Source: Flavobacteriales bacterium (GTDB taxonomy: Bacteria; Bacteroidota; Bacteroidia; NS11-12g; UBA955). Taken from it: a stretch of DNA of 64,000 nucleotides. The translations under genes and the position numbers were made by a program. The notes beneath the pieces are model-generated. The model was given only the letters and a program-made list of their open reading frames with translations. It searched no databases and had not been told where the DNA came from. Below, in pieces: positions 4,765 through 27,129 of the stretch; position 1 is the first letter of the stretch; the number at the start of each line of letters is the position of its first letter. The DNA lies in contig CANGWH010000002.1 of assembly GCA_947457565.1 (NCBI GenBank), forward strand, positions 12,175-76,174, given 5' to 3'.

Positions 4765-5124
4765 ATGAATCCAGATATTTTATTTAATCGGTTGGAGCAA
4801 AGAACAGAGCGGGAATTATTCCGTAGAAGTTTCAAAGCTGCTGCGGATAGTCAGGATTCAATGTTTAAGAAGTTTGAGAACCGCAAGCGAGAACAACTAA
4901 AAGTAACCATAGCTAGAGAGGTGAAGTGGTTTTTAATAACCATTATCCTAGCCCCTGTTCTAGGTTTTGTTTTTTTCTATGCTTTTGCGAATTTAATGCA
5001 GGAGACGATGATAGAATTAGCTATTTTTTTTAATGGTGTTGAAACTCTATTTTTAATAATCTCTGGAATTACCTTTTTAGGAATTTATTTAGCTCGACTA
5101 ATTATTTGGGCATTGAAGCAGTAA
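4765..5124 (+). CDS. Small two-TM membrane protein, first gene of the injection-system operon (holin-like or anchor?)
   Basis: This 119-aa ORF has a charged N-terminal half followed by two predicted TM helices. It sits 3 nt upstream of the cap-like gene. No family was recognised. Confidence 0.4.
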   Translation: MNPDILFNRLEQRTERELFRRSFKAAADSQDSMFKKFENRKREQLKVTIAREVKWFLITIILAPVLGFVFFYAFANLMQETMIELAIFFNGVETLFLIISGITFLGIYLARLIIWALKQ

Positions 5125-5127
5125 ATT

Positions 5128-5694
5128 ATGATTTACGAATCCCTTAGAGCCCTGGAATTAGAGATTAACTCTCACCTTAAATACGTTACAGGTTCTAATG
5201 AGGAATTATTGGTCCTTAGCAACATTGCCGATCAATCAGGTGCAAAAGCATTACAACAAGACAATGTAGTTTATTTTTCCTTACTAAGAATTGACGAAGA
5301 CAAGACGATAAATAAATCAGGCGGATATCCGAATAATTTCAAAAAGGGAGTGCCCACTTTATTGGTACTTTATGTAATGTTCGCTTCTTCTCATTCAGGA
5401 AACAGATATAAAGACGGAATATTTTTAATTGATAAAATCATTGGTTATTTCCATGAAAATTCGGTTTTAAAACAAACCGATATTGATGGATTACCCGCAG
5501 AAGTTGATTCCCTTGTCTTTGATTTGCAGAATATTGATTTTAGAGAGGTTTCCAATATATTTAGTGCTACCGGATCAAAATTAATGCCTCATGTAATTTA
5601 TAAAATTCGACTTTTACCTGTTTTCGGAAATGACAATAATAGATCATTACCAAGCATGAAGGAGCTAAATCGAAGGCTAAATGACAATGAATAA
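5128..5694 (+). CDS. DUF4255 (Pvc16/Afp16 N-terminal domain)-like protein, a putative tail terminator or cap
   Basis: This 188-aa protein has the DUF4255-like pattern (hydrophobic heptads, then VYFSLLRIDED...). Its position and tight spacing are consistent with an injection-system cap or terminator gene. Confidence 0.45.
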   Translation: MIYESLRALELEINSHLKYVTGSNEELLVLSNIADQSGAKALQQDNVVYFSLLRIDEDKTINKSGGYPNNFKKGVPTLLVLYVMFASSHSGNRYKDGIFLIDKIIGYFHENSVLKQTDIDGLPAEVDSLVFDLQNIDFREVSNIFSATGSKLMPHVIYKIRLLPVFGNDNNRSLPSMKELNRRLNDNE

Positions 5695-5702
5695 TTTCTT
5701 AA

Positions 5703-6578: not shown

Positions 6579-8444
6579 ATGGCAAATTACAGAACTCCAG
6601 GTGTGTACGTAGAAGAAATTTCTACCCTACCACCGTCGGTTGGTCAGGTACCAACTGCTGTTCCTGCGTTTGTTGGATATACTGCAAAAGCTCAAAAAGG
6701 CGGTAGCAGCATCCTAAACACAGGCGTTCACATCTCTTCTATGTTAGACTACATCGATTATTTCGGTGGTGGTTATGTTCCTGCTGAGATCCAAGTTTCT
6801 TTGGATGAAGGCAAGCAAGTTACCGGAGTTAAGTTTGACAAAAACTTCTACTTGTACGATGCAGTGCGTCTTTTTTTCGCTAACGGCGGAGGAGAATGCT
6901 ACATAGTATCCGTTGGTACTTATTCAGATGACATAAACTTCGAATCATTACTAGCTGGTTTGGAAGCTTGCAAGCGTGAAGACCAACCTACAATTTTGGC
7001 TATACCGGATTCTGTATTACTTGCTAAAGCTGACGAGTGTTTTTCTTTACAGCAAGCAATGTTAATGCAGTGTGCTGAAATGCAAAACCGTGTTGCTATT
7101 TTGGATGTTTACGAAGGCTATATTCACCGCAACGACAAGGATGTTGTGTTAAACTTCCGTAACGGTATTGGTGTTAATAATCTAAAATACGCTGCTTCTT
7201 ATTATCCTTGGATTTATTCAGCACTTCCACATAAATACAACCATGAAACCATAAAAATCAAGGTTGCCGATGAAGACAAAAGCTTAGAAGATTTAGCTTC
7301 TCACCCAATTTCTGTGAAGAATTTAAATGCTGCAATATCGGACATGGCCAAGATTCGTGATTTTTCAAATAAAGATTACAAATCTACAATCACTCCTTTA
7401 TTGGACAATTTGGATGGTTCAGCTGCCGATTTAAATGCGGGAGCCGGTGCTATTGCAACTTCTATGAAAGAGTTGTATGATTTCGCACTTGGTTTGTTCG
7501 ATAGCGCTCCTATCGCCAACGAAATGAGCGTTAAAGTAAATGCTAGTTCTAAATTCTCGGCTTTGTTGAAGAATTTTGCCAGCGTTGACGCTGCTATCGG
7601 TTCTGGGGCTTATAAAGGTGGTGACTTCTCTACGTTGGATTTGGGTGAACCCAATCCAAATGCTGCAATTGCTAACCAAGAGAACGCTGATATCAAGACT
7701 AAAATGTCTAAAGATGCTTTGTACAAGTTCGCCGATGAATTAAAAGGTATTTTAAACAGTGTTGCAGAAGATGCTGAAGCCATTAAAGAAAACCTAAGCA
7801 AAATCGCTTACGACCACAATCCTATCTTACAGAATATCGTTAATGAAATTTTGAAAGAACTGTCTAAAGCACCTACTGCTGGCCCAATTAGCGGTGTATA
7901 TGCAATGGTTGACAGTCAGCGTGGTGTATGGAAAGCTCCAGCAAACGTAAGTTTATCTTCTGTTGCTAGACCCTGTATCAAAATTGACGATCGTCAGCAA
8001 GAAGACTTAAACGTAGATGTACTTAGCGGTAAGAGTGTTAATGCTATCCGTACCTTCACAGGAAAAGGAACTTTAGTATGGGGCGCTAGAACATTGGCTG
8101 GAAACGATAACGAGTGGCGTTATATTTCTGTTCGTCGATTCTTCAACATGGTTGAAGAAAGCGTTAGAAACGCAACAGGATGGGCAGTATTTGAGCCAAA
8201 CGATGCATCCACTTGGATTCGCGTTAAAGCAATGATTGAAAACTACTTAACAAACCTTTGGAAAGCTGGAGCAATGGCTGGAGCATCTTCGGATCAGGCG
8301 TTCTTTGTAAACATTGGACTTGGTACAACTATGTCTGCTGTTGACATTTTGGAAGGTAGAATGAACATCGAAATAGGTATGGCCGTTGTAAGACCTGCGG
8401 AATTCATCGTATTGAAATTCTCACACAAATTACAAGAGTCATAA
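6579..8444 (+). CDS. Contractile tail sheath protein (Afp2-4/Pvc2-4-like)
   Basis: The N-terminus (YRTPGVYVEEISTLPPSV...VPAFVGYT) is the hallmark of phage and Afp sheath proteins. It has a conserved C-terminal sheath domain (VWGARTL...GMAVVRPAEFI) and is 621 aa long. Confidence 0.9.
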   Translation: MANYRTPGVYVEEISTLPPSVGQVPTAVPAFVGYTAKAQKGGSSILNTGVHISSMLDYIDYFGGGYVPAEIQVSLDEGKQVTGVKFDKNFYLYDAVRLFFANGGGECYIVSVGTYSDDINFESLLAGLEACKREDQPTILAIPDSVLLAKADECFSLQQAMLMQCAEMQNRVAILDVYEGYIHRNDKDVVLNFRNGIGVNNLKYAASYYPWIYSALPHKYNHETIKIKVADEDKSLEDLASHPISVKNLNAAISDMAKIRDFSNKDYKSTITPLLDNLDGSAADLNAGAGAIATSMKELYDFALGLFDSAPIANEMSVKVNASSKFSALLKNFASVDAAIGSGAYKGGDFSTLDLGEPNPNAAIANQENADIKTKMSKDALYKFADELKGILNSVAEDAEAIKENLSKIAYDHNPILQNIVNEILKELSKAPTAGPISGVYAMVDSQRGVWKAPANVSLSSVARPCIKIDDRQQEDLNVDVLSGKSVNAIRTFTGKGTLVWGARTLAGNDNEWRYISVRRFFNMVEESVRNATGWAVFEPNDASTWIRVKAMIENYLTNLWKAGAMAGASSDQAFFVNIGLGTTMSAVDILEGRMNIEIGMAVVRPAEFIVLKFSHKLQES

Positions 8445-8488: not shown

Positions 8489-8920
8489 ATGGCGAATCCA
8501 GATTATCCACTACCAAGGTTTCACTTCCGTGTAACTTTTGATAGCACAGTAATCAACTGCAGCGAGGTAACCGGTCTTAACACCAATTTGGATGTTATCG
8601 AATACCGCGATGGTGCAAGCGTTGAATTCAGTACCCAAAAAATGTCCGGCTTGAGAAAGTTTGGAGATATTGTAATTAAAAAAGGCGTTTTCCAAGATCA
8701 CCAAGAATATTGGGATTGGTACAATGCAGTTGAAATGAACAACCCAGTTCGTAAAACTGTAACCATCGAGTTATTGGATGAACAACATGCGCCTGTTATG
8801 ACTTGGGCATTGAAGAATGCTTGGCCTAACAAGGTTGAAAATCCCGATTTGAAATCGGATGCCAGTGAAGTAGCGGTTGAAACAATCACTATATCGCACG
8901 AAGGTTTATCCTTGGCATAA
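8489..8920 (+). CDS. Inner tube protein (Afp1/Pvc1-like)
   Basis: This 143-aa protein has the tube hallmark YPLPRFHFRVTFDS and the expected size. Confidence 0.85.
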   Translation: MANPDYPLPRFHFRVTFDSTVINCSEVTGLNTNLDVIEYRDGASVEFSTQKMSGLRKFGDIVIKKGVFQDHQEYWDWYNAVEMNNPVRKTVTIELLDEQHAPVMTWALKNAWPNKVENPDLKSDASEVAVETITISHEGLSLA

Positions 8921-8974: not shown

Positions 8975-9451
8975 ATGGCAAAAAAACAAAGCGTAGGTAA
9001 TCAGCCGTTAGTTGGGTTTCATTTTAGTGTTAACTTTCTTTTCAACACAAAAAACAAAACCACCGAAACAGGGTTTAAAGAAATAAAAGGAATTGAAAGA
9101 ACCATACTGTATAAACCTTCCGTAGAAGGAGCCACATCTTCGGATATGCTCGGTATAGATAAAGTTCAATACGGTACTCTCATTTTAAGTCGTGGTGTAG
9201 TTACCAATTCAAAAATTCACGAATGGTATGAAAAACATATTACCACTTTTAAAAAATACCCCATCCCAATCACGGTAAATGTGTTGGACAGCAACCATAA
9301 GCCTTTGTATTTTTATATCTTCTATGATGTCTATCCTGTAAAAATGGTCACCTCCGGATTTAATGCTATGAAGTCAGAAATTTTAATTGAAGAACTGCAC
9401 TTAGTCTACTCTAAATATACCCAAAGTACATCCGGCAGCTTTCAAAAATAA
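8975..9451 (+). CDS. Second inner tube protein (Afp5/Pvc5-like)
   Basis: This 158-aa protein has the VGFHFSVNF tube motif and is paralogous to the preceding gene. Confidence 0.8.
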   Translation: MAKKQSVGNQPLVGFHFSVNFLFNTKNKTTETGFKEIKGIERTILYKPSVEGATSSDMLGIDKVQYGTLILSRGVVTNSKIHEWYEKHITTFKKYPIPITVNVLDSNHKPLYFYIFYDVYPVKMVTSGFNAMKSEILIEELHLVYSKYTQSTSGSFQK

Positions 9452-9453: not shown

Positions 9454-9639
9454 ATGGTAGAGATTAAAAAGTTGATAATTAAAGCTTCTGTGAATGAGCA
9501 GAATGCCAACCAAGAAAACAATAGCGAAATTGAAGAAATTCAAAAGATTTATGAACATATCGAGGAAGTTAAACAAGAAATCCTCCATGATGTTGATGAA
9601 AGAATTGTGGAACTTATTGAAAAACGATTTAGAAAATAA
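9454..9639 (+). CDS. Small acidic coiled-coil protein, equivalent in position to Afp6/Pvc6
   Basis: A 61-aa E/K-rich ORF that starts 3 nt after the tube gene stop, with a same-strand operon context. Confidence 0.4.
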   Translation: MVEIKKLIIKASVNEQNANQENNSEIEEIQKIYEHIEEVKQEILHDVDERIVELIEKRFRK

Positions 9640-9647: not shown

Positions 9648-10394
9648 ATGGCTACAAGTTCAAACCAGATTAGCAAATTTGAAATAACAGCCTACGAAGA
9701 TGTTGATTGCACCAAAGCAGTTTCGCCTACATCTCAATCCAGCAAAGCCTTCGATTCAAGTAAATTAAAATATATATTTCCGTTTATTTCAAGTACGTTA
9801 AATCTTGAAAATACGCATACTTATAATTCCCAACAACCCATTGGTTTTTCTGGCGTTGATCCCAAATTTAAAAGTATAAAACCAAAGAATTTAAAACTAG
9901 ATCTGATTATTGATCCAGGTATAGAGCCTGATTATTCCTATTCTATGAATGAGGGAATGCCTATTAAAGAAGGGTTCATGACATTAACGGATAGGTTGGA
10001 ACTTTTCGAAAAACTGGTTGGATATAATTCTTCCACTCATAGACCCAATTATTTAGTACTATCTTGGGGTAGTAATTTTAGCATGAAAGCTACGCTTTCT
10101 TCCTATTCCATTGCCTATGACCGCTTTAACGCCAAAGGAGAACCTACAAAAGCAACCATTAAAGCTAATTTCCAGGAAGTAATTTCTTCAAAAAAAATGT
10201 TATCTGAACAAGATAGACAATCACCGGATGTTAGTCATTCCTTTGAAATAGAAGAAGGCGAGAATTTAATTCAACTCTGTGAACGTGTTTATGGAGACTC
10301 TAAATTCTATTTGCAAATAGCAAAAATTAATGGGTTAACATCCATTAGAAACTTACCCGTGGGAACTCGATTATATTTCCCTCCATTAAAATAA
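9648..10394 (+). CDS. Tube-initiator or baseplate hub protein with a C-terminal LysM domain (Afp7/Pvc7-like, T4 gp53-like)
   Basis: The C-terminal roughly 45 aa form a LysM fold (NLIQLCERVYGDSKFYLQIAKINGLTSIRNLPVGTRLYFP). Size and position match Afp7. Confidence 0.7.
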   Translation: MATSSNQISKFEITAYEDVDCTKAVSPTSQSSKAFDSSKLKYIFPFISSTLNLENTHTYNSQQPIGFSGVDPKFKSIKPKNLKLDLIIDPGIEPDYSYSMNEGMPIKEGFMTLTDRLELFEKLVGYNSSTHRPNYLVLSWGSNFSMKATLSSYSIAYDRFNAKGEPTKATIKANFQEVISSKKMLSEQDRQSPDVSHSFEIEEGENLIQLCERVYGDSKFYLQIAKINGLTSIRNLPVGTRLYFPPLK

Positions 10395-10400: not shown

Positions 10401-12161
10401 ATGTCTTCCACCAAAGATCCAAGCACGGTTAGTTTCGAATTGTCCATTAACGGGGCAACATCCAAATTATCACCTCACATTCTTAAAATTCAAATCAATA
10501 AGAACATTGGTAAAATTTCAAGGGCAAAAGTAGTTATCCACGATGGCGATAGTTCTAAAGAAAAATTTGAGCTAATAGAGACAAATACCCCTAAAATCGG
10601 CGATACCGTAGAAATAAAAATAGGGGGCGATCCAACTTCTTTAAAATCCGTTTATAAAGGTGTAGTAAGCGGGTTAAGTGCCGAAGTTAGTAACTTTAAT
10701 CAACACGTTACTATTGATTGCGTGGATAAAGCTTTTCAAATGACGAAAGGTAGAAATACCTCTATTTTTCTAAAGAAAAAAGACGATGCAATTATAAAAG
10801 AAATTATAGGAAACTATGCAGGTATTACCGTTTCTGCAGATACAACAACAACCGAACATGAAAAATTAATTCAATACGGGGTGACGGATTGGGACTTTAT
10901 GTTAATGCGAGCAGAGGCAAATGGGCTTTTGGTAAGCAACTCAGATAACGAAATTGCTGTTAAGAAACCAAAATTAACGGAGGCAGCGAAACACACATAC
11001 AGCAATGGCACAAACATTCTAAATGTTCAAATTCAAGCCACCGGTGAGCCTGCGATTAGCTCAATGAGCATACAACATTGGGATTACGATTCCGGTGGAG
11101 TAAAGACAGGAAAGAGCGATGCAACAGATAAACCCAACTATCCAAGCTTGGTAACTGCAGATAGTGTTACAGCCTTTCAAAAGCCGAAAGAAGCAATAAA
11201 CGTTTATACCGCTGGCATCCACAAAGAAAACGCATTAAAGGGTATTGTAAACAACAAGGTTGTTCGATCCATGATTGCAACAGTTCGTGGTCAAGCAACA
11301 GTTTTTGGTGATTCTACCGTTAAACTCTGTGAAATAGTAGAACTTAAAGGCTTGGGGAAATTTAGTGGGAAGTTTTTTTGCAGTGGTATTGAACACAATA
11401 TGTCTGACGGAATTTTTTCTACTACAATACTTTTCGGGATAGACGATAAATCTTTATGGGAAAGAGACCCTAGTATTTTTCAAGAATCTGTAGGAAGTAC
11501 AATCTCTCCCGTTTACGGTTTACACTTGGGAACTGTAGTTAAATTAGATGGCGATCCAAACAGCCAGTTACGGATACAAATTAAACTTCCTATGTTCGGA
11601 TCTGATGCCTTAGTTTGGGCTCGACTCACCTTCCCTGACGCAGGAAAAAACCGAGGCATTTTCTTTGTTCCAGAAAAAGATGATGAAGTGGTGGTTTCTT
11701 TCTTAGATGGCGACCCAACCCAGCCCATAATTTTAGGAACATTGTATAATAAAAAAAGTACTGTACCAAAAACTTGGGATGCCAAAAACAATATTCGTAA
11801 AATCGTTTCAAAGAATAAAGTAGAAATTGAATTTGATGATGAAAAGAAAAATCTTACGCTAAAAACACCGGGTGGAAATTCAATTTTAATGGACGATGCA
11901 AAAGGTATTACCATTAAAGATAAAAATGGGAATAGCATCGAACTAGGCAGTTCAGGAATCACCATTAAATCTGCCAAAGACGCAACACTCAAAGCCTCTA
12001 AAAATGTAACCGTTCAAGGCGATGCAGGAGCAGTAACGATAAGTGGATTAGACGTAACCGCGGATGCTAAAAAAGCACTAAAAGTGGCGGGAAAAGCAAC
12101 TGCTGAAATAAGTGCCGCTGGAATACTGACAGTTAAAGGGGCGATGGTAAAAATTAATTGA
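10401..12161 (+). CDS. VgrG/gp27-gp5-like central spike protein (Afp8/Pvc8-like)
   Basis: This 586-aa protein has a gp5 OB-fold region (FGSDALVWARLTFPDAGKNRGIFFVPEKDDEVVVSFLDGDPTQPIILGTLYN) and C-terminal beta-helical repeats. Confidence 0.85.
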   Translation: MSSTKDPSTVSFELSINGATSKLSPHILKIQINKNIGKISRAKVVIHDGDSSKEKFELIETNTPKIGDTVEIKIGGDPTSLKSVYKGVVSGLSAEVSNFNQHVTIDCVDKAFQMTKGRNTSIFLKKKDDAIIKEIIGNYAGITVSADTTTTEHEKLIQYGVTDWDFMLMRAEANGLLVSNSDNEIAVKKPKLTEAAKHTYSNGTNILNVQIQATGEPAISSMSIQHWDYDSGGVKTGKSDATDKPNYPSLVTADSVTAFQKPKEAINVYTAGIHKENALKGIVNNKVVRSMIATVRGQATVFGDSTVKLCEIVELKGLGKFSGKFFCSGIEHNMSDGIFSTTILFGIDDKSLWERDPSIFQESVGSTISPVYGLHLGTVVKLDGDPNSQLRIQIKLPMFGSDALVWARLTFPDAGKNRGIFFVPEKDDEVVVSFLDGDPTQPIILGTLYNKKSTVPKTWDAKNNIRKIVSKNKVEIEFDDEKKNLTLKTPGGNSILMDDAKGITIKDKNGNSIELGSSGITIKSAKDATLKASKNVTVQGDAGAVTISGLDVTADAKKALKVAGKATAEISAAGILTVKGAMVKIN

Positions 12162-12174: not shown

Positions 12175-12474
12175 ATGCCTCCTGCAGCTAGAGTAACAGA
12201 CATGCACATGTGCCCAATGCAAACACCGGGTATAGTTCCTATTCCACATGTAGGAGGACCCATTGTTGGACCCGGCGCATCCAAAGTATTGATCGGAGGG
12301 CTTCCTGCAGCTTTAATGGGTGACAACTGCGTTTGTGTGGGTCCACCCGATAAAATAGTAAAAGGTTCTGCTACCGTATTAATTCAAGGGAAACCCGCTG
12401 CGAGGATGGGCGATACAACGGCTCACGGTGGTACGGTTATGAGCCTTTGCCCAACAGTTATGATTGGAGGATAA
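12175..12474 (+). CDS. PAAR-domain spike tip protein (Afp10-like)
   Basis: A 99-aa Gly/Pro-rich protein with the PAAR pattern (RVTDMHMCP...GGP...AARMGDTTAHGGTV). Confidence 0.85.
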   Translation: MPPAARVTDMHMCPMQTPGIVPIPHVGGPIVGPGASKVLIGGLPAALMGDNCVCVGPPDKIVKGSATVLIQGKPAARMGDTTAHGGTVMSLCPTVMIGG

Positions 12475-12475
12475 T

Positions 12476-17217: not shown

Positions 17218-17218
17218 T

Positions 17219-19970: not shown

Positions 19971-22900
19971 GCTTGAAATAGACATTCAGGGAGTATCTGC
20001 AGAATGGGTTGAATTCCATCGAGAGTCCATCGTACAGAAACTTGTACAAATTTTTAACGATTTCCCGGAAAATGATCTGCAAATATTTCTCGAATTTATA
20101 TCCATTGATATCGGAAAATTCAATAACATTGGTGATTTTCTGCTTTTTCTTGACCTTGAGTTAACGCGATGGCGCCGTCAAATCCTAGAAGATAATTCAA
20201 TTAGCGAAAAACAAAAGTTAGAACCCAATTATTACTCAGACTTTTCCCAAAATGATTGGGATACTGTATTCCTTGAAACCAAAGATTTTTTCAATCCTGA
20301 ACTTGCAACGGACACCGATAAGTTAAAAATCAAATTCATTGAAATCTCTTCTCTATTACAACGAAATCGCGAACAATTTTGGAGATGGCTATTGGATTTA
20401 GGTATAAGTAATGAGTTGATAAGTAAATTTCGTAAATTCATTACCAATCAACAACTACCTAATGAAGCTATAGTTGCTTGGATTACCAGTATGATGGTTT
20501 TGAAGGATAAAAAACCCGATCAATCCTTCGAAAAAATACTCATTCAAATACTCTACAGAAACTTTACAAATTCCTATAAACTTTCAATATTCCTAAAAAG
20601 AAATGACGACGAATTTATACAAATACTGACAGCAAATACAAATAATAATCTCGCACCAGCTAACACGAAATTAATGGGCATTGAAGAATCGGATTGGCTT
20701 TATCTGGACTCCATTAATAATTGGCAGGAATTAGTTGGTTCTAAAATACTATCTCCTGAAATAATTAAGCAGATTCCTTTATCCTACCTCGTAAAGATTT
20801 TATCATCAAACAACTGGAATGATGATTCAATCTTTTGGGACAGTTTATCTCTTTTTTTAATTAATAATAATTTAATTAAAAAATCCGAATTACATAAACC
20901 AATTTCAACTGAGGATTCTCAACAAAAATTCTTCATCATTCAACAATGGTTTTTTAACACATTGCCCGCTGATGATAAAACCGCAGAAATTTCTACGGCA
21001 ATCTTAGTGATACTTTCTCTCAATCAAGACAAATCATCTACAGTAAAATTATTACAGGATTTTATTACTGAAATCTCACCCAATATTTCAACCGCCGAAT
21101 TTCTGCTATTCGAACAAATATGGATAGATATAATTCAAAAATTGAAAAATAATGAATATTCAATCAAATCGTTTAGTAATAAATTTCAGCAGATTTTCAT
21201 ACTAATTAACAAACTACTTAAAACAGAAGAACAGCCTAATTTCAACTTATTTGAATTTCTACAGTCAAAACCTATTGCAATTATCGTTTCAGAAAAAGAG
21301 ATAGATGTAACTCCACTATCAGCGAATGAACTTGGTATTAAAGAAAATGAATCCAATTATCTCTTAACCAATTTATATCGCAACTTTAAGTCTTTTGTAT
21401 CACTATTTCGTTCTAATGAAACGGTAGTTAATATCCTTATAGAAATCAGCAATAAAATTGCCGATAAATCGATTACGACAAATAAAGAAATCCTCCAAGC
21501 ATTTAGGCGCTATTATAAAATTAAAAAATTAGAGTTACTTACAAATTCTATTTCAGCGATTGATAAAAAATTCTTTGTTTCCAATAATATTAGTAATGAA
21601 CTAATACATTGGATTGATTGGATTAATTGGCTAAGTTTAAACCAGTATAAAAAAATCAATTTATCCTTTGATTTTTGGAAATTAACTTATTATAAAAAAG
21701 AAAATAATTCATCCAATCTATACGAAAAAATAAATACGAATATTATCAATATTATAAAAAGTGAAATTTCAGAATCACATAACAAAATTGATAATACACC
21801 TCCGTTATTTAATAAAGAAGAGCTGCTCTGGTTTGAGTCATTTATAGAGGAAATAGACAGTAATGTTTCATTAAATACAAATGATATATCCAATGAAACT
21901 CTAGAATTCTATTTTTCACTATTTAATTACATTCTAATTGAGGAAGCTAGTATTCAGAAATACAATAAATCAAATATTGAGCTACCTAACATTTCTCCTA
22001 ATACTAAAATAGAATTAATTATAGATCTTTACAAAAGACTAACCTCTCCAAATTACATCAATTTTACGTATGATTTATTACGAAAAATTGAAACGAATGC
22101 AGAACTGCAACAAACAAACAATCTCAGTTCTATTTATATATTCAGAGATTCTTTACGCTCAATAATTGAAACTAATTTATTCGAAAATTCAATTAATCAG
22201 ACGATAAAAAATGTACTATCCAAGTTGTTATTAGACCAATACGTTAATGATACAGAAACCAACCATAAATTGCCTGTTTCAGCGTATATCAATGCTGTCT
22301 TTGGCTTTTTTCTGTCATGGCAAGAACAATTAATTGAATTCCAGAAACAAAAATTTTCCAAAACAAATAATCAATTAGAACTTACTGCACCAAAGTTGAT
22401 CAATGCAATCCAGCTTTGGTTAGAAAGCACAAACGCCACATGGGTTAATCCTAAACAATTACCCGTAGAATTAGGAGAATCTCTTGTGGAATTTATGACA
22501 CAGTTGAAGAAAATTGATTTTATCTTTCAGGAGATTCAAGACAAGAATACCGATATTGATATTCAACAATTACAGAAAATTTATCAGTTAGATATTTCTA
22601 TTTTATTTTCTGACTTCTTTGATCAAATTAATTTTCAGCACGAAATTAGTGCAACAATAAAAATCAACTATTTACTCCAAAATAGTATTATAAAAACCAA
22701 TTTAATCATTAAAAATTTAATACACGAATTAATACCCCCTAGCTTCACTATAAATAACCTTATCTCCAATTATGCAGCCATTGGTGATAAAGTATTTGAT
22801 ACATTTATACCCACTTTAAGTGAAATTCATTTGTTTACACTTGTAGATATTCACAACCAATTACAAGAACAAACAAAGCATTTAATACTGAGTATCAATG

Positions 22901-25900
22901 AATATCAAAAATCGTCATTAGTAAATCCTTTCCAAGAAGATATTTTAAACAAAGCATATACGTTGGATATCAATCCTATTATTTTCAAAAATATTTCCAA
23001 AGTCCCCCTCTCTTATTCCATCAATACATGGACCAACAACTTAGAATATTCATATACCATTGATTCAATTTTAAACGACTCAAGTCTCTTTCTAAACCTA
23101 ATTCTAAACCAACATAGAATACCTATCGTTACTGTTACTAATTCTAATCAATCCATTAATAAATATATCTCGAAAGTTGAATTAATCAACGTATTATTTG
23201 GACATCCACGATGGAGAGAACTTTATGTACAATTAACAAGGCGAGAAGGTGAAGGGTTTAAGCAATTAGCCAATCAATTAAATATAGCGGACGTTTTTCT
23301 TATTGTAAACAATAAATTCCCAAGTTCCAATAACTATTCTACAGATATCGAGAACTTAATTACTATTGTTTTGTCCAATATTAATAAAAGTACTAATTTT
23401 TTACAAACGTTTAAATTTTATTGGATACAAATCACACAACCGCCAAATCCTGTAAGAATCCTCCAAATAATTTTAGAAACCTATTTAACGATAAATGAAT
23501 CGAATATTTTACAATTTATTCAATCAATAATAATTCCTTCAACGATATTCAAACGACTTCAGAAATCAGAAAAAAAAGCTCTCGATGAATGGATTAACAA
23601 TCAATTAAAAAATTTCCAACCACGAAAAGAGAATGAATTTTTCGAGACCATACAGCGATTAGAAGAGATTAACGCTATCCCCAAAGAACTAATTAATCAA
23701 ATCGTACTAAAGAAACAGAATTATTCCGTTCGAAATAATTCTCTTAATCAATCGAGGAATCTATCCTTTGATGATTCTAATGATATAAACAATATAATGA
23801 GGGGAAATGAAGTGGATAATAATTTAAAGGAACAACGGAGCGAATCAGAAGATAAATTATCAAGGGATATACCCAATAGCCCCGATCTGAATGAAATTGA
23901 GATAAATTTCACTAATGAAACTACTGAGAAAAAACAAATAGAATTTACCGCTTTCGATGACCCAAATCTAAATGAGTCAACCACGATTGAAGGAAACAAT
24001 GTATTACAAACCGCTGAAAATAAAACAGTCCCTATACTTCCTGGCACGAATCCTTCAAATTCAGCAGATCAAGAAGCTAGATTAATAGATTTCAATACAC
24101 TAGACAACAACAATAATATCCAACAAGAATCATCTCAAGATTTCGTTTCAATCTTCGAAAAAAACAATAACAGTTGGAGTACATTAATTAAGGAAATCAA
24201 CTATAAACTTTTAAGTACCCCAACTATTGCTGAAACCGTTATTGCCGAACAAGTATATTTAATTGCTGAAAAGAAACTACCCAACAATACCGATATAATA
24301 GAGCTTCAAGGCTTCTTTAGGAAAATAATAACCTACAGTATATGGTTTGAGCTATTAGACATTATTCCAACAACCATTTACAGCAGTTTTAATTCATTCT
24401 CGGTTTCCCAAAAAACAGGAATTATAACCTTAATAAAAAACTCAAAAACAAATATTTCAAATGAAATAAAAGTAAAATTTTTAAGTCACATTATTTGGGA
24501 ATATTTAAATTCAAAATCAACGCATTGGCTAATTAAACCCAGTTTTGATTCAGTAACGAGTCTACTCATTGAGATAAAAACTATTAAGCCTTTGCTGTTT
24601 TCAGAGATATTAGCTCAACCTACATTTAAAAAAATTCTAATAAATCGTCAATGGAATTTGCCGATTCAAGAATTCAAAGAATATAGTGACAACCTAAACA
24701 TAAAAGCAAAGCCCATTGATGCCCAGCAAAATATCAACCCCTCAAATAAGGCCATTTATTTCCCAATAATTGAAACTAACTGGGCTGTTTGGCAACAACT
24801 GGACACTCCTTCTGACTCTACCAATATCGAGATTATCCGCTCTATATTAAACAAATATTTATCTTTAAACTATAGCAAATCAAACAGTGTATTAACGTGG
24901 ATAGATTCTTTATTAAGTTTAACCTATTTTAACGAAAAAAATCAATATCCCGAATTTTTATTCAACAAACTGATTATCAATCAATGGATTATAAATGGAA
25001 AAACAAATTTTACTCGATTAAAAAGTGACTCGATTTTCTCTATTTTCAATTACACTATTAACCAAATATCTGGTAATAATGATTTAACTCGACTACCATC
25101 GTCCATTGGTATTAATTTTCATAAAAGTATCGAGGGTCTTTCAAAAGTAGAAGACGAGAGTTTACTTCAAGAAATTGATAACAACTTTAAATTATTAAGC
25201 GACTTTTTTGTAGAAATAGCTACTAAGGTTAAAGATAGAACTACTAACTTAAATACTTCTGAAATTTTAAATACTGTAGAAATTACTGAAGTGCTTAATT
25301 TGAATTTAATCAAACTGTTACTTTCAACTAAACAGCGGAATGCTGATTGGTTCAACAACAATTTTGAATTAAATCAATTTGACAAAATTATTACGTTCAC
25401 CCTAGAAGAACTAGAACTACTTACAACCAAAATATCATCTAATGAACCTAAAATATTAATTACCCAATTAAATCAATTTCACCAATTTATAATTGAATTC
25501 AACAACGGTAAAAACTCCGATAACAATCCGATTTATTGGCAGGTGAGTATAACTGTAATTATTGATGCATTAATTAAGAAATCAATTAATTTATTAAATA
25601 AATATGGTAATAAAACTACTGTAAATAGCCTTTCACAATATCCGATTTTTTCGATTGATGACTTTTTTGATAGTGAATTATTAATTGAGTCGCTTAAAGA
25701 AACTGCGAATTCATCGTTAGAATTAATACGTAAAACGTTGAATCTCACCTCCAATATTGAAACCAGTCTGGTAATATATTGGCTATCTGAAAATTTCAAT
25801 TTCCATCTATCTGAATTTAAACCCTCAGATAATCCTTTGTTAGAAATATTCTTCGATAAATCTGAACAAATACCTGAATCTGATCATGTAATAGAACTTT

Positions 25901-27129
25901 TGGTCCAACAATTAATTGAACTCAACTACGAAGCAGGTTTTAGTACAGATGAGTACTTTATTGAAAGTTTAATTCCATCATTATTGTTATCATTTACCTA
26001 CAGCAGGCCGCAACAAATTAATGAAATTATAGAAAATCGACTCTCGGAAGAATGGAATGAATCGGATACCGAAGAAGATAATAAACAGCCATTATCGAAA
26101 CTAGAAAGTAAAATAAATGAGTCTACTAGCAGCACCGTTGATTCCAACCAAGTTGTTAGTTCCAACAATGTTAAAAGTAGCAAAGATATCAGCTTGAATC
26201 GTAGCAATGGAAGTGACTCAGGAGTTGGTTTAAAGAATGAGGATGACCAAACATTGGGCAATACTGAAGATAGCAGCGTAGGATCAAGTTCCGCACCAAC
26301 CATTCAATTGCCTTATTCTAGAGAATCCATTACGCAGCAACTATTTAAAAATACACCTAATATTTATGGGTCGCTCCGAGAATCATTTATTGAAATTTCG
26401 AATAAAATCAACCCCTCTGAAATTGAAAAACTTGTTGCAAGGATAAAGTCAGCATGGGAGAATCAAATAAAAGCAAGACAAATAATAGAAGGCCATTTAC
26501 AGCAGCCCAATTTATTTAAGGCTATAGAATCCATTCCATTAAATAAAAAAATTGAAATTAAGACAACTAACGAAGTAAAACAGGATAATTCTGCAATTAA
26601 AAAAGCCGTTAACCAAGGGACTCGATTTGCAACTGGGCTTTGTGGAATGATAATGTTAGCACCCTATTATGGGACATTATTTCGCAGAATGAATCTAATT
26701 GAAAATAATAATTTCAAATCGGAAACTGAACAATTAAAAGCTTATTCCATTATATTCCAATTGGCTAAATTACACGAAGAAACACCAACCGATTATCAAG
26801 ATTTAGTACCTAGAATTATAGTGGGCATTCCACCAGAAGCTACGGTTACGGGAATTGTACAATTAAGCGAAGAGGAATTAGAAGAAATTGAAAAATTTTT
26901 AACAGCAGTTAAGGCTCAATGGAAACTCATGAATAATGTAAGTTTACGCGGATTTATTCAATCATTTTTGTTAAGAACCGGTAAAGTCTGGAAAGAAGGT
27001 GATAAATGGAAGATAGAGGTTGACACCCACGGCGCAGATATTATATTAAAAACCGTACCTTGGGGTTTCTCATTTATAAAATACCCTTGGAATCCTTATA
27101 TTATTGAAACCAAATGGGAATTGGAATAA
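19942..27129 (+). CDS. Giant 2395-aa low-complexity, predicted alpha-helical protein; candidate tape-measure (Afp14-like) or cargo protein
   Basis: One uninterrupted ORF, strongly N/I/K/L/E/Q-rich. It has an S/D/E-rich segment near aa 2050-2150 and a more complex, roughly 250-aa globular-looking C-terminal region (GLCGMIMLAPYYGTLF...WKIEVDTHGADIIL). It is the last gene of the operon. Confidence 0.6.
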   Translation: MKSNHLLIHELEIDIQGVSAEWVEFHRESIVQKLVQIFNDFPENDLQIFLEFISIDIGKFNNIGDFLLFLDLELTRWRRQILEDNSISEKQKLEPNYYSDFSQNDWDTVFLETKDFFNPELATDTDKLKIKFIEISSLLQRNREQFWRWLLDLGISNELISKFRKFITNQQLPNEAIVAWITSMMVLKDKKPDQSFEKILIQILYRNFTNSYKLSIFLKRNDDEFIQILTANTNNNLAPANTKLMGIEESDWLYLDSINNWQELVGSKILSPEIIKQIPLSYLVKILSSNNWNDDSIFWDSLSLFLINNNLIKKSELHKPISTEDSQQKFFIIQQWFFNTLPADDKTAEISTAILVILSLNQDKSSTVKLLQDFITEISPNISTAEFLLFEQIWIDIIQKLKNNEYSIKSFSNKFQQIFILINKLLKTEEQPNFNLFEFLQSKPIAIIVSEKEIDVTPLSANELGIKENESNYLLTNLYRNFKSFVSLFRSNETVVNILIEISNKIADKSITTNKEILQAFRRYYKIKKLELLTNSISAIDKKFFVSNNISNELIHWIDWINWLSLNQYKKINLSFDFWKLTYYKKENNSSNLYEKINTNIINIIKSEISESHNKIDNTPPLFNKEELLWFESFIEEIDSNVSLNTNDISNETLEFYFSLFNYILIEEASIQKYNKSNIELPNISPNTKIELIIDLYKRLTSPNYINFTYDLLRKIETNAELQQTNNLSSIYIFRDSLRSIIETNLFENSINQTIKNVLSKLLLDQYVNDTETNHKLPVSAYINAVFGFFLSWQEQLIEFQKQKFSKTNNQLELTAPKLINAIQLWLESTNATWVNPKQLPVELGESLVEFMTQLKKIDFIFQEIQDKNTDIDIQQLQKIYQLDISILFSDFFDQINFQHEISATIKINYLLQNSIIKTNLIIKNLIHELIPPSFTINNLISNYAAIGDKVFDTFIPTLSEIHLFTLVDIHNQLQEQTKHLILSINEYQKSSLVNPFQEDILNKAYTLDINPIIFKNISKVPLSYSINTWTNNLEYSYTIDSILNDSSLFLNLILNQHRIPIVTVTNSNQSINKYISKVELINVLFGHPRWRELYVQLTRREGEGFKQLANQLNIADVFLIVNNKFPSSNNYSTDIENLITIVLSNINKSTNFLQTFKFYWIQITQPPNPVRILQIILETYLTINESNILQFIQSIIIPSTIFKRLQKSEKKALDEWINNQLKNFQPRKENEFFETIQRLEEINAIPKELINQIVLKKQNYSVRNNSLNQSRNLSFDDSNDINNIMRGNEVDNNLKEQRSESEDKLSRDIPNSPDLNEIEINFTNETTEKKQIEFTAFDDPNLNESTTIEGNNVLQTAENKTVPILPGTNPSNSADQEARLIDFNTLDNNNNIQQESSQDFVSIFEKNNNSWSTLIKEINYKLLSTPTIAETVIAEQVYLIAEKKLPNNTDIIELQGFFRKIITYSIWFELLDIIPTTIYSSFNSFSVSQKTGIITLIKNSKTNISNEIKVKFLSHIIWEYLNSKSTHWLIKPSFDSVTSLLIEIKTIKPLLFSEILAQPTFKKILINRQWNLPIQEFKEYSDNLNIKAKPIDAQQNINPSNKAIYFPIIETNWAVWQQLDTPSDSTNIEIIRSILNKYLSLNYSKSNSVLTWIDSLLSLTYFNEKNQYPEFLFNKLIINQWIINGKTNFTRLKSDSIFSIFNYTINQISGNNDLTRLPSSIGINFHKSIEGLSKVEDESLLQEIDNNFKLLSDFFVEIATKVKDRTTNLNTSEILNTVEITEVLNLNLIKLLLSTKQRNADWFNNNFELNQFDKIITFTLEELELLTTKISSNEPKILITQLNQFHQFIIEFNNGKNSDNNPIYWQVSITVIIDALIKKSINLLNKYGNKTTVNSLSQYPIFSIDDFFDSELLIESLKETANSSLELIRKTLNLTSNIETSLVIYWLSENFNFHLSEFKPSDNPLLEIFFDKSEQIPESDHVIELLVQQLIELNYEAGFSTDEYFIESLIPSLLLSFTYSRPQQINEIIENRLSEEWNESDTEEDNKQPLSKLESKINESTSSTVDSNQVVSSNNVKSSKDISLNRSNGSDSGVGLKNEDDQTLGNTEDSSVGSSSAPTIQLPYSRESITQQLFKNTPNIYGSLRESFIEISNKINPSEIEKLVARIKSAWENQIKARQIIEGHLQQPNLFKAIESIPLNKKIEIKTTNEVKQDNSAIKKAVNQGTRFATGLCGMIMLAPYYGTLFRRMNLIENNNFKSETEQLKAYSIIFQLAKLHEETPTDYQDLVPRIIVGIPPEATVTGIVQLSEEELEEIEKFLTAVKAQWKLMNNVSLRGFIQSFLLRTGKVWKEGDKWKIEVDTHGADIILKTVPWGFSFIKYPWNPYIIETKWELE

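What the first reader, a model, noticed from the sequence alone, without database searches (positions are those of the whole stretch)
4765..27129. Complete-looking extracellular contractile injection system locus of the Bacteroidetes 'T6SSiv'/Afp-PVC-like type
Eighteen co-directional, tightly spaced or overlapping genes encode the recognisable core of a phage-tail-like nanomachine. These are a single sheath (PGVYVEE N-terminus), two tube paralogues (PRFHF/GFHF), a LysM tube initiator, a VgrG-like spike, a PAAR tip, gp25 and a 1200-aa gp6-like protein. A DUF4255 cap-like protein sits at the 5' end. No T6SS membrane-complex genes (TssJLM-like), no ClpV and no TssB/C split sheath are present, so this is a phage-like injection system and not a canonical T6SS. 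Only a minority of bacterial genomes carry one, and the Bacteroidetes lineages are poorly characterised. No integrase, transposase or tRNA flanks it in the window, which argues for a domesticated system over a prophage.
Basis: partly seen in the sequence, partly recalled or inferred. Interest (0 to 1): 0.8.

Follow-up and report, generated by a model that had tools for sequence, protein, structure and literature searches.

The report
Very long membrane-anchored-type contractile injection system
This is a real, intact phage-tail-like injection machine in an uncultured freshwater Bacteroidota bacterium; it belongs to an already described group, most resembles its cell-anchored members, and stands out by an unusually long length-ruler protein and the lack of the usual cargo-loading ATPase.

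Summary
Window 4765-27129 carries 16 (not 18) co-directional, tightly packed genes for a contractile injection system (CIS): cap, cap adaptor, sheath, two tube proteins, plug, tube initiator, VgrG spike, PAAR, gp25, Cis11, Cis12 and a 2395-aa tape measure. It is not a canonical T6SS and not a prophage tail.

The "extracellular" label is the weak part. Gene for gene, the locus is collinear with clade Ib systems, especially the Salmonella salamae SalCIS (2026). It shares that system's two marks of membrane association: a SalCis13-type short trimeric fibre (16513-17217) and a likely SalCis20-type membrane-anchored GH18 protein. The GH18 gene lies outside the given range (28440-30356).

The tape measure is 4.5 times longer than that of AlgoCIS, which predicts a tube of roughly 0.4-1 µm.

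The AAA+ ATPase and variable cargo genes that sister lineages carry upstream are missing from the whole 64-kb window.

All genes are under purifying selection. My best reading is a cell-anchored, contact-dependent, T6SSiv/SalCIS-like machine (confidence about 0.55). A released eCIS remains possible. It is a new member of a known kind, of moderate interest.

The parts
4765..5124 (+). TM119: 119-aa protein with a charged N-terminal half and two C-terminal transmembrane helices. It is the first gene of the operon and its function is unknown.
   Evidence: No hit in Pfam, NCBIfam, PHROGs or PADLOC. Hydropathy gives 2 TM helices. It is the first gene in every relative with sheath identity of at least 47%. 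dN/dS is 0.006 against L001.
5128..5694 (+). Cap / tube terminator (Cis16A, short Alg16A-like form)
   Evidence: Pfam Pvc16_N, 1.1e-16. At 188 aa it is close to Alg16A (197 aa; PMC8894135).
5703..6539 (+). Cap adaptor (Cis16B)
   Evidence: The single sequence finds nothing. The profile of 12 positional homologues (A4) hits SalCis16b 9r9n_C at 1.2e-10 over its full length, the AlgoCIS cap adaptor 7adz_1A at 2e-6, and tCIS All3326 at 1e-4.
6579..8444 (+). Contractile sheath (Cis2), single gene
   Evidence: Pfam Phage_sheath_1C, 1.4e-16. PDB sequence matches: AlgoCIS 7adz_2A 7.7e-129, SalCIS 9r9h_T 1.6e-118, tCIS 7b5h_AO 1.8e-118, versus Pvc2/Afp2 at about 1e-51 to 1e-60.
8489..8920 (+). Inner tube protein (Cis1)
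   Evidence: Pfam Phage_T4_gp19, 1.1e-40. It is 99% identical in L001 and L004.
8975..9451 (+). Second tube paralogue (Cis5, baseplate-proximal tube layer)
   Evidence: Pfam Phage_T4_gp19, 4.7e-20. The assignment rests on its position, as for Cis5 in AlgoCIS and SalCIS.
9454..9639 (+). Spike plug (Cis6/Alg6-like), 61 aa
   Evidence: Pfam DUF5908, 1.9e-5, 25.8 bits, just below the 27.7-bit cut-off. Position and size match the Alg6 plug (PMC8894135). A small ORF sits at this position in relatives.
9648..10394 (+). Tube initiator (Cis7), with a LysM-like C-terminus
   Evidence: Pfam CIS_tube, 1.5e-24. The LysM resemblance is by eye only.
10401..12161 (+). VgrG-like spike (Cis8, gp27 and gp5 parts fused)
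   Evidence: Pfam Phage_base_V 6.7e-21 and Phage_GPD 2.2e-8. It is 34% identical over its full length to the SalCIS-type Cis8 in L088, 1e-114.
12175..12474 (+). PAAR spike tip (Cis10)
   Evidence: Pfam PAAR_motif, 1.6e-26. It is 74% identical to the L088 PAAR.
12464..12889 (+). gp25-like sheath initiator (Cis9)
   Evidence: Pfam GPW_gp25, 8.1e-15.
12896..16498 (+). Cis11: gp6-like baseplate wedge with a long extension (the spike-cage former in solved relatives)
   Evidence: PDB sequence matches: tCIS All3317 2.4e-25, SalCis11 9rce_A 6.5e-24, Alg11 7aeb_G 1.7e-21. TIGR02243 matches weakly, on the C-terminus only.
16513..17217 (+). Cis13-type short trimeric fibre, a candidate baseplate-to-membrane anchor (SalCis13 homologue)
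   Evidence: BLASTP against the 276-aa ORF between Cis11 and Cis12 of the SalCIS-type operon L088: 1e-37, 31% over the full length. Profile A5 hits Bdellovibrio fibre bd2133 8ond at 8.5e-12 and the N-terminus of tCIS All3316 at 2.5e-4; All3316 has 18 chains in 7b5h. dN/dS is 0.02.
17219..17419 (+). p66: 66-aa protein of unknown function that follows the fibre gene. I infer a fibre assembly factor.
   Evidence: No family hit. It is conserved at this position in the clade, 45-79% identity. dN/dS is 0.16.
17433..19970 (+). Cis12: gp6/gp7-like baseplate wedge
   Evidence: PDB sequence matches: Alg12 7aeb_A 4.3e-20, tCIS All3315 2.7e-16, SalCis12 9rce_B 6.2e-14. Only the N-terminal ~110 aa match.
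19942..27129 (+). Tape measure protein (Cis14), 2395 aa
   Evidence: Pfam CIS_TMP, 1.8e-39, on residues 2116-2392 only. Only the last ~200 aa are conserved. Length is held at 2318-2473 aa in five relatives although identity falls to 20-60%. The AF2 model of residues 1-1200 is low-confidence and nearly all helical. The ORF stays open over 7.2 kb of 29% GC DNA.
27153..28400 (-). TPR lipoprotein on the opposite strand, a conserved neighbour between the tape measure and the GH18 gene. Membership is uncertain.
   Evidence: Pfam TPR_2, 1.2e-24. A signal peptide with a lipobox Cys is visible. It sits at the same place in L087, L089, L090 and L091, 42-88% identity.
28440..30356 (+). GH18TM: Sec signal, periplasmic GH18 domain lacking the catalytic Glu, and three C-terminal TM helices. 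Probable SalCis20 equivalent (envelope anchor or peptidoglycan binder).
   Evidence: Pfam Glyco_hydro_18, 3.3e-24. Architecture read from the sequence. BLASTP to the SalCis20-type protein of L088 gives 2e-7; that L088 protein equals PDB 9r9a_B at 1600 bits. hhalign gives probability 51%, E 1.6e-4, and aligns DGVVLDF with DGITLDI. Foldseek best hits are YdhD and SleL (the model is poor, pLDDT 48). The gene follows the tape measure in every relative checked. dN/dS is 0.02.
30340..30963 (+). p207: predicted lipoprotein whose start overlaps the end of GH18TM by 17 nt. Likely partner of GH18TM.
   Evidence: Signal peptide with a lipobox. Conserved after GH18TM in L087, L089, L090 and L091. No family hit.

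Best explanation
The locus encodes a clade Ib contractile injection system of the long, envelope-associated kind (T6SSiv / SalCIS-like), in an uncultured freshwater Bacteroidota.

Proposed working.
1. A baseplate assembles around the spike. Its parts are the VgrG trimer with a PAAR tip and a Cis6 plug, the Cis7 initiator, gp25, and six Cis11-Cis12 wedges whose Cis11 extensions cage the spike.
2. The 2395-aa tape measure attaches to the baseplate through its conserved C-terminal ~200 residues. It sets the length of the Cis5/Cis1 tube and the single-protein sheath that polymerise on it.
3. The Cis16A cap and Cis16B cap adaptor close the distal end.
4. From the tape-measure length, the machine should be about 0.4-1 µm long: 0.36 µm if a plain alpha-helix; 0.52-0.55 µm by the published CIS calibration; about 1.1 µm by the SalCIS ratio.
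5. Six trimers of the short Cis13-type fibre, with the membrane-anchored, peptidoglycan-facing GH18 protein (and probably its lipoprotein partner), hold the baseplate at the inner membrane. Sheath contraction then drives the tube and spike out through the envelope into an adjacent cell.
6. This lineage lacks the Cis15 AAA+ loader and the adjacent cargo genes of its sisters. Damage would therefore come from the spike complex, from mechanical puncture, from the ejected tape measure, or from factors encoded elsewhere.

Shown versus inferred.
- Shown: gene identities, collinearity with SalCIS, conservation, purifying selection, and absence of the ATPase from the window.
- Inferred: membrane anchoring, actual length, target and payload.
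For: Identity of the parts.
- Pfam and PDB sequence matches for all structural genes.
- The closest solved relatives are the three clade Ib machines: AlgoCIS, SalCIS and tCIS.

Collinearity with SalCIS.
- The SalCIS order is 16a-16b-2-1-5-6-7-8-10-9-11-13-12-14-20.
- All eight genes that can be compared with the SalCIS-type operon L088 match in order.
- L088 is tied to SalCIS by a 1600-bit match of its last gene to PDB 9r9a_B.

Marks of membrane association.
- Cis13: p234 matches the L088 gene at 1e-37 over the full length.
- Cis20: same Sec signal + GH18 + 3 C-terminal TM architecture, same position after the tape measure, BLASTP 2e-7, hhalign E 1.6e-4 with a shared non-catalytic DGxxLD motif, and SleL/YdhD-like fold hits.
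- The SalCIS paper used SalCis13, SalCis20 and the Cis11 extension to define a membrane-associated cluster. It saw 600-700 nm assemblies at the inner membrane (PMC13266070).
- Aureispira T6SSiv is anchored to the inner membrane and 420 nm long (bioRxiv 10.1101/2024.01.29.577165).

Tape measure as a ruler.
- Length is conserved at 2318-2473 aa while sequence identity falls to 20-60%. Only the last ~200 aa are conserved.
- AlgoCIS experiments give 0.229 nm per residue, and 0.2156 across CISs (bioRxiv 10.64898/2026.05.27.728243).

The system is functional.
- dN/dS is 0.006-0.16 for 15 genes and 0.02 for GH18TM.
- The same gene order occurs in more than 20 assemblies.

ATPase and cargo.
- An AAA+ gene (PF00004, 1e-27) plus variable ORFs of 524-1271 aa lie divergently upstream of TM119 in sister clades.
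- alaS occupies that place here and in L001, L003 and L004.
- There is no AAA+ homologue and no HExxH ORF anywhere in the window.
Against: - Nothing here shows where the machine sits in the cell; anchoring is inferred from two homologies.
- The Cis20 link is weak at sequence level: hhalign probability is only 51%, the AF2 model is poor (pLDDT 48), and 9r9a itself was not among the 50 Foldseek matches listed and may not be in that library.
- GH18TM is separated from the operon by an opposite-strand gene.
- In the SalCIS paper itself, anchoring through SalCis13 and SalCis20 is a model, not a demonstrated fact.
- By bit score the sheath is slightly closer to the released AlgoCIS than to SalCIS.
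- The SalCIS paper states that all operons of its cluster encode a SalCgo2 homologue. None is found here.
- The ATPase and cargo could lie elsewhere in the genome as a split locus.
- The length-per-residue calibrations differ threefold, so the predicted length is rough.
Confidence: 0.55

Rival explanations
1. A released extracellular CIS of the AlgoCIS/MAC kind. Particles assemble free in the cytoplasm and are set free by lysis of the producer. They then bind targets through the 234-aa fibre. TM119 would act as a holin-like protein and the GH18 protein as the wall-degrading partner.
For: - The sheath's best solved match is AlgoCIS (7.7e-129), and Cis12's best match is Alg12.
- AlgoCIS belongs to the same clade Ib and was shown to be released (PMC8894135).
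- The cap plus cap-adaptor pair and the plug are as in AlgoCIS.
- The fibre profile matches adhesive Bdellovibrio fibres, which fits target binding.
- A small 2-TM protein together with a wall-directed GH18 could be read as a lysis pair.
Against: - The GH18 domain lacks the catalytic Glu of the DxxDxDxE motif across the family. It is also Sec-exported and tethered by three TM helices, which is unlike an endolysin.
- TM119 is the first gene of the operon, 23 kb away from the GH18 gene.
- There is no Cis15 loader and no cargo gene. In AlgoCIS these are needed to fill the tube.
- The fibre is the SalCis13 type.
- A particle of 0.5 µm or more would be several times longer than AlgoCIS (about 121 nm), the one released eCIS whose length I checked here.
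Confidence: 0.3
2. A cytoplasmic CIS that fires inside the producer or onto internal membranes, as in Streptomyces CIS or cyanobacterial tCIS. It would serve stress-induced cell death or lysis, not attack.
For: - tCIS is among the closest solved relatives for sheath, Cis11 and Cis12.
- The N-terminus of the fibre family matches tCIS All3316.
- There are no cargo genes.
- A small membrane protein is encoded in the operon, as CisA is for Streptomyces CIS (title and abstract of PMC12237407).
Against: - The SalCis13 and SalCis20 homologies point to the cell envelope.
- No thylakoids are expected in Bacteroidota (my own knowledge).
- The Cis12 of this locus is not of the enlarged tCIS type: 845 aa against 1335 aa.
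Confidence: 0.1
3. A decaying remnant or a myovirus prophage tail module with no present function.
For: A core component (AAA+) and the cargo genes are missing from the window.
Against: - All 16 ORFs are intact and of conserved length in many relatives. dN/dS is 0.006-0.26.
- The 7.2-kb tape-measure ORF stays open in 29% GC DNA.
- No capsid, portal, terminase or integrase family in the flanking ORFs scanned, and no tRNA.
- The accessory proteins match no PHROG family.
- The chromosomal context is stable.
Confidence: 0.03

Closest known systems
SalCIS of Salmonella enterica subsp. salamae (Ejaz et al., Nat Commun 2026, PMC13266070; PDB 9r9h, 9r9n, 9rce, 9r9a)
   Same: - Clade Ib.
- Same gene order: 16a-16b-2-1-5-6-7-8-10-9-11-13-12-14-20.
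- Cap adaptor: the best profile hit is SalCis16b.
- The SalCis13-type fibre sits between Cis11 and Cis12 (1e-37).
- A membrane-anchored GH18/SleL-like protein follows a very long tape measure.
- SalCIS is 600-700 nm long and lies at the inner membrane.
   Different: - Host phylum: Bacteroidota here, Gammaproteobacteria for SalCIS.
- Identities are low: 21-34% for most proteins, 74% for PAAR.
- This locus has three extra conserved genes (TM119, p66, p207) and an intervening TPR lipoprotein gene.
- The tape measure is 2395 aa, against 1354 aa in the SalCIS-type operon L088.
- The GH18 protein is shorter: 638 aa against 864-881 aa.
- No SalCis15 AAA+, SalCgo1 or SalCgo2 in the window.
T6SS subtype iv of Aureispira sp. 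CCB-QB1 (ixotrophy; bioRxiv 10.1101/2024.01.29.577165) and of Ca. Amoebophilus asiaticus (Böck et al. 2017)
   Same: - Bacteroidota hosts.
- Clade Ib gene set with a tape measure and a Cis11 cage.
- Long, uniform machines: 420 nm in Aureispira.
- Anchoring to the inner membrane by six densities plus the cage.
- SalCis13 homologues are reported in both operons.
   Different: - No sequence from either organism was available here, so relatedness is indirect, through the SalCIS paper.
- Aureispira has a trans-envelope complex and antennae. No encoding genes are named in the passages of the preprint I read.
- Aureispira encodes DUF4157 effector candidates; none is seen here.
AlgoCIS of Algoriphagus machipongonensis (Xu et al. 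2022, PMC8894135; PDB 7adz, 7aeb)
   Same: - Best solved match for the sheath (7.7e-129) and for Cis12.
- A short Cis16A cap plus a cap adaptor.
- The Alg6-type plug.
- The Cis11 cage former.
- Bacteroidota host.
   Different: - AlgoCIS is released and about 121 nm long, with a 526-aa tape measure.
- It has the Alg15 AAA+ and HExxH cargos Cgo1 and Cgo2 in the cluster.
- Its tail fibres are described as a different kind: Alg19 has Ig-like folds.
Thylakoid-anchored CIS of Anabaena (Weiss et al. 2022; PDB 7b5h, 7b5i)
   Same: - Best solved match for Cis11 (2.4e-25).
- Close matches for the sheath and the Cis12 N-terminus.
- All3316, present as six trimers in the baseplate, shares the N-terminal ~40 aa of the fibre family.
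- All3326 matches the cap adaptor.
   Different: - Cyanobacterial host and thylakoid anchoring.
- Much larger Cis12 (1335 aa).
- All3316 is only 154 aa and lacks the C-terminal part of p234.
Afp / PVC (subtype Ia eCIS)
   Same: Same superfamily and overall part list. Sheath C-terminal domains match at 1e-38 to 1e-63.
   Different: - Afp and PVC have three sheath paralogues, an Afp15 ATPase, Afp13 adenovirus-like fibres, a full-length two-domain cap, and toxin genes at the 3' end.
- They have no cap adaptor and no Cis20.
- Their gene order differs (PMC6899500).

Membership tests
Contractile injection system superfamily (Afp/PVC-like; Chen et al. 2019 core set) | Sheath (Afp2/3/4), tube (Afp1/5), Afp7, Afp8, Afp9, Afp11 and Afp16 homologues in one cluster | tested here: met
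   All seven are found by Pfam or PDB sequence matches.
Contractile injection system superfamily (Afp/PVC-like; Chen et al. 2019 core set) | Afp15-type AAA+ ATPase (the eighth core component, present in more than 85% of loci) | tested here: not met
   No AAA+ in the cluster. tblastn with the sister-clade ATPases finds nothing in the 64-kb window. Pfam scans of the flanks show only an unrelated nSTAND1 NTPase. A copy elsewhere in the genome cannot be excluded.
Clade/subtype Ib CIS (MAC, T6SSiv, AlgoCIS, tCIS, SalCIS) | Single sheath gene, single fused VgrG, one notably long Afp11, tape measure present; sheath groups with Ib members | tested here: met
   One sheath gene, a fused Cis8, a 1200-aa Cis11 and CIS_TMP are present. 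The three best solved sheath matches are all Ib (434, 400 and 400 bits), against 218 bits or less for Ia. No formal phylogeny was built.
Clade/subtype Ib CIS | Cap adaptor (Cis16B) and spike plug (Cis6) | tested here: met
   Cap adaptor: profile hit to SalCis16b, Alg16B and All3326. Plug: DUF5908 at 25.8 bits, just under the cut-off, with the right size and position.
SalCIS-like membrane-associated cluster (Ejaz et al. 2026) | SalCis13-type trimeric fibre encoded between Cis11 and Cis12 | tested here: met
   BLASTP 1e-37 over the full length to the corresponding gene of the SalCIS-type operon L088. The trimeric state itself was not tested.
SalCIS-like membrane-associated cluster (Ejaz et al. 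2026) | SalCis20: Sec-exported integral membrane protein with a SleL-like hydrolase domain and three TM helices | tested here: inconclusive
   Architecture and position match. The sequence link is weak: BLASTP 2e-7 over 99 aa, hhalign probability 51%. Fold hits to YdhD and SleL come from a low-confidence model.
SalCIS-like membrane-associated cluster (Ejaz et al. 2026) | Extended helical domain IV of Cis11 | not tested
   Only residues 507-1164 align to SalCis11. The N-terminal half could not be aligned or modelled with the remaining quota.
SalCIS-like membrane-associated cluster (Ejaz et al. 2026) | SalCgo2 homologue (HExxH protein) in every operon of the cluster | tested here: not met
   No ORF of 60 aa or more with an HExxH motif anywhere in the window. 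I had no SalCgo2 sequence for a direct search.
T6SS subtype iv (defined by mode of action) | Baseplate anchored to the inner membrane; contact-dependent firing from inside the cell | not testable with these tools
   This needs cryo-electron tomography and killing assays. Only indirect gene-content support is available.
Canonical T6SS (subtypes i-iii) | TssB/TssC split sheath, TssJLM or equivalent membrane complex, ClpV, no tape measure | tested here: not met
   There is a single 621-aa sheath and a tape measure. No such families were found in the window ORFs that were scanned.
Myovirus prophage tail module | Adjacent capsid, portal and terminase genes, an integrase, and often a tRNA attachment site | tested here: not met
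   The scanned flanks are housekeeping genes. There is no tRNA. The accessory proteins match no PHROG family.

The most novel reading that the evidence does not exclude
The conserved set of envelope genes next to the tape measure may encode the trans-envelope anchor and trigger of a T6SSiv-type machine.
- The set comprises a TPR lipoprotein, the GH18 membrane protein, a lipoprotein, a ~10-TM protein with a large soluble domain, a TonB-receptor-like outer-membrane barrel, and a membrane-spanning STAND NTPase with a WD40 propeller.
- That structure has been seen in Aureispira tomograms, and the preprint passages I read name no genes for it.
- The machine itself would be a half-micron to micron-long, cargo-loader-free puncturing device used by a freshwater Bacteroidota to kill neighbouring cells.
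Probability: 0.12. Interest if true: 0.8.

Novelty: new member of a known kind. Interest (0 to 1): 0.45.

Why it matters
Clade Ib injection systems are being used as models for how phage-tail machines became either released particles or cell-anchored weapons, and as programmable protein-delivery devices.

This locus adds three things:
- It is a free-living freshwater Bacteroidota representative that combines the AlgoCIS-like core with the two SalCIS-type membrane-association genes.
- Its tape measure is one of the longest in the family, which gives a natural test of the ruler rule far outside the engineered range.
- Its sister lineages retain the AAA+ loader and variable cargo genes. They therefore offer a natural comparison of a system with and without lumen loading.

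The gain is incremental. The kind of machine, its parts and its probable mode of action are already described.

Tried and rejected
- Single-sequence searches of the 278-aa, 234-aa and 2395-aa proteins against solved structures gave nothing usable. Profiles built from locus-derived homologues were needed.
- NCBIfam gave only sub-threshold TIGR02243 hits. PHROGs and PADLOC gave nothing for the accessory proteins.
- Promoter and terminator scans were at chance level.
- The AF2 models of the GH18 protein and of tape-measure residues 1-1200 were low-confidence (pLDDT 48 and 39). I used them only for fold class and secondary structure.
- The word-indexed homologue search found very few relatives of Cis11, the tape measure and GH18TM (7, 6 and 12). 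Diversity had to come from the genome and metagenome scans instead.
- I considered that the four genes at 31060-41217 belong to the system, because they stay adjacent in six relatives. I set this aside as unproven. The p487 + nSTAND1 pair occurs in more than 50 unrelated loci, and the four-gene set occurs without any CIS or GH18 gene in L098.
- I considered that the giant tape measure is unique. It is not: 12 of the best 150 family representatives are 2000 aa or longer.
- I considered an effector domain fused to the tape measure. No Pfam domain and no confident globular fold appeared in residues 1-1200. Residues 1201-2100 were not modelled.

Full report
**What is there.** Between 4765 and 27129 the + strand carries 16 ORFs with gaps of 0-55 nt or short overlaps.

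Pfam assigns the following:
- a short Pvc16_N/DUF4255 cap;
- one sheath;
- two gp19-type tube proteins;
- a DUF5908-like 61-aa protein;
- a CIS_tube initiator;
- a fused VgrG;
- PAAR;
- gp25;
- CIS_TMP, on the last 280 residues of a 2395-aa protein.

The 1200-aa and 845-aa proteins have no Pfam hit. They match the solved Cis11 and Cis12 chains of AlgoCIS, the Anabaena thylakoid-anchored CIS and the Salmonella SalCIS. The sheath's best solved matches are the same three machines (434, 400 and 400 bits), far ahead of Afp/PVC at 218 bits or less.

Flanks. Of the 28 flanking ORFs (>=200 aa) I scanned, those with a Pfam hit are ordinary chromosomal genes, such as a GT2 glycosyltransferase, rsmG and alaS upstream, and PEPCK, gldB, NAD synthase and dnaG further downstream; four gave no hit, and about ten smaller ORFs in 44.6-64.0 kb were not scanned. 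There is no tRNA. No capsid, portal, terminase, integrase, TssJLM or ClpV family appears.

**Naming the unknowns.**
- 278-aa protein after the cap (5703-6539). Alone it finds nothing. A profile of 12 positional homologues hits SalCis16b over its full length (1.2e-10), the AlgoCIS cap adaptor (2e-6) and tCIS All3326 (1e-4). It is the cap adaptor.
- 61-aa ORF (9454-9639). It has the size and place of the Alg6 plug.
- 234-aa protein between Cis11 and Cis12 (16513-17217). It is 31% identical over its full length (1e-37) to the gene at the same position in locus L088.
- L088 is a SalCIS-type operon. Its last gene matches PDB 9r9a_B at 1600 bits, and its Cis11 and Cis12 have exactly the lengths of the solved SalCis11 and SalCis12 chains. 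By elimination within the published 15-gene order, the L088 gene at that position is SalCis13.
- The family profile of the 234-aa protein also matches trimeric Bdellovibrio fibres (8.5e-12). Through its first 40 residues it matches All3316, which is present in 18 copies in the tCIS baseplate. The protein is thus a short trimeric fibre that plugs into the baseplate.

**The locus is larger than stated.** After the tape measure come three more genes:
- an opposite-strand TPR lipoprotein gene (27153-28400);
- a 638-aa protein (28440-30356) with a Sec signal, a GH18 domain and three C-terminal TM helices;
- a 207-aa lipoprotein gene whose start overlaps the end of the 638-aa gene.

SalCis20, the gene after the SalCIS tape measure, is described as a Sec-exported protein with a SleL-like hydrolase domain and three TM helices.

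Evidence that the 638-aa protein is its equivalent:
- BLASTP to the L088 SalCis20-type protein gives E 2e-7.
- hhalign gives E 1.6e-4 at 51% probability. It aligns DGVVLDF with DGITLDI, so both lack the catalytic Glu.
- The best fold matches are YdhD and SleL, but from a poor model.

I treat the equivalence as probable, not proven.

The trio TPR-GH18TM-lipoprotein follows the tape measure in every relative whose downstream region I could read. That includes two relatives in which these proteins are only 41-50% identical to the window's.

**Comparative picture.** A scan of species-representative genomes found 193 related sheath genes. The closest (73-80% identity) are freshwater-lake Bacteroidota MAGs. 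Their NCBI organism labels are inconsistent, so I place the organism no more precisely than Bacteroidota. The gldB gene in the window fits that.

The full 16-gene order, including TM119, the fibre and the 66-aa ORF, is shared by all relatives with at least 47% sheath identity.

In the sister clades (sheath 73-80%), an AAA+ gene (PF00004, 1e-27) sits divergently right upstream of TM119. It is followed by variable ORFs of 524-1271 aa without known domains. This is the arrangement SalCIS has for SalCis15 and its cargos.

In the window and its three closest relatives, alaS occupies that place. tblastn with the sister ATPases finds nothing in the 64 kb, and no ORF contains an HExxH motif. [quoted passage not shown] This lineage therefore either keeps the loader elsewhere or works without lumen cargo.

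**Tape measure.**
- Only the last ~200 residues are conserved: 85-92% in close relatives, 44-54% in distant ones.
- The rest drops to 20-60% identity, yet length stays at 2318-2473 aa in five relatives and is 1757 aa in one.
- dN is about 0.54, against 0.01-0.14 for the other genes.
- The AF2 model of residues 1-1200 is low-confidence but almost entirely short helices, with no confident globular domain.

This is the behaviour expected of a ruler.

Predicted particle length for 2395 residues:
- about 0.52-0.55 µm from the published calibrations of 0.229 and 0.2156 nm per residue;
- about 0.36 µm for a plain alpha-helix;
- about 1.1 µm from the SalCIS ratio (about 600 nm for a 1354-aa homologue).

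Such long tape measures are uncommon but not unique. Of the best 150 of 8060 family representatives, 12 are 2000 aa or longer and about a third are 1000 aa or longer.

**Is it functional?** dS is saturated, so the ratios are rough. Even so, dN/dS is 0.006-0.16 for 15 genes, 0.02 for GH18TM and 0.2-0.26 for the tape measure. The relic reading is rejected.

**Mode of action.** Three things favour an envelope-anchored, contact-dependent T6SSiv/SalCIS-like machine (confidence about 0.55):
- the SalCis13-type fibre;
- the probable SalCis20 equivalent;
- a tape measure in the size class of the anchored systems (Aureispira 420 nm, SalCIS 600-700 nm).

Three things keep a released eCIS alive as a rival (about 0.3):
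- the sheath is marginally closer to the released AlgoCIS;
- the Cis20 link is weak;
- anchoring is itself only a model in the SalCIS paper.

Localisation cannot be read from sequence.

**Neighbours.** Four further genes on the opposite strand (31060-41217) remain adjacent in six relatives, although the upstream flank differs:
- a ~10-TM protein;
- a TonB-receptor-like barrel;
- an nSTAND1 NTPase with a TM segment and a WD40 propeller;
- a 487-aa protein.

The same four-gene set occurs without a CIS in L098, and the last two genes occur as a pair in more than 50 unrelated loci. I therefore report it as a separate module, with a small chance of functional coupling.

**Verdict.** This is a genuine, selected, clade Ib contractile injection system. 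It is a new member of a known kind. Its distinguishing features are the 2395-aa ruler, the missing loader and cargo module, and the clade-specific small genes TM119 and p66.

Noticed in passing
window 31060-41217 (- strand): A four-gene module: a 993-aa protein with ~10 TM helices and a large soluble part; a 901-aa TonB-receptor-like protein (signal peptide + Plug domain); a 1003-aa nSTAND1 NTPase with a TM segment, coiled coil and WD40 propeller; and a 487-aa protein (weak DUF4062). It stays next to the CIS in six relatives. It also occurs without any CIS in L098, and the last two genes form a pair in more than 50 metagenome loci. No PADLOC match.
   Followed up: partly
L009, L011, L015, L016 and other sister loci, 0.3-7 kb upstream of the TM119 gene: Sister clades carry one or two divergent AAA+ genes (~447 aa) plus lineage-variable ORFs of 524, 632 or 1271 aa with no Pfam domain and no HExxH motif. 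These are likely the loader and its cargos. The module is absent from the window lineage, where alaS sits instead.
   Followed up: partly
window 4765-19970 compared with L004: Protein identity alternates sharply along the operon. Sheath is 96%, tube1 99%, PAAR 93% and TM119 93%. Against that, cap is 64%, tube2 49%, tube initiator 63%, Cis11 64%, and the plug is undetectable. This pattern suggests recombination or very uneven constraint.
   Followed up: no
window 18000-26000: GC content falls from about 35-38% to 29% across the end of Cis12 and most of the tape-measure gene. The protein is rich in Ile, Leu, Asn, Ser and Lys, and has no Cys.
   Followed up: partly
window 28440-30356: The GH18 domain has DGVVLDFPD where GH18 enzymes have DGxDxDWE. 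The catalytic Glu is missing, and the whole family keeps DGxxxDF. The SalCis20-type protein has DGITLDIDL. Both may bind the wall without cutting it.
   Followed up: partly
L008 10001-13849: A lone Cis11-like gene (1282 aa, 23% identity) lies among rplL, smpB, mutL and nusA, with no other CIS gene within 10 kb. This resembles the split loci described for endosymbiont-type genomes.
   Followed up: no
L088 (JGI metagenome 3300067984): A nearly SalCIS-identical operon in an environmental metagenome. Its tape measure is 1354 aa. Set against the published 600-700 nm, that gives about 0.44-0.5 nm per residue, twice the AlgoCIS calibration.
   Followed up: no
record titles of L010, L011, L014, L020 and L021: Several MAGs carrying close relatives of this Bacteroidota-type locus are labelled Chitinophaga pinensis, Rhizobium sp. 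or Arenicella sp. in their public records. These labels look unreliable for taxonomic placement.
   Followed up: no
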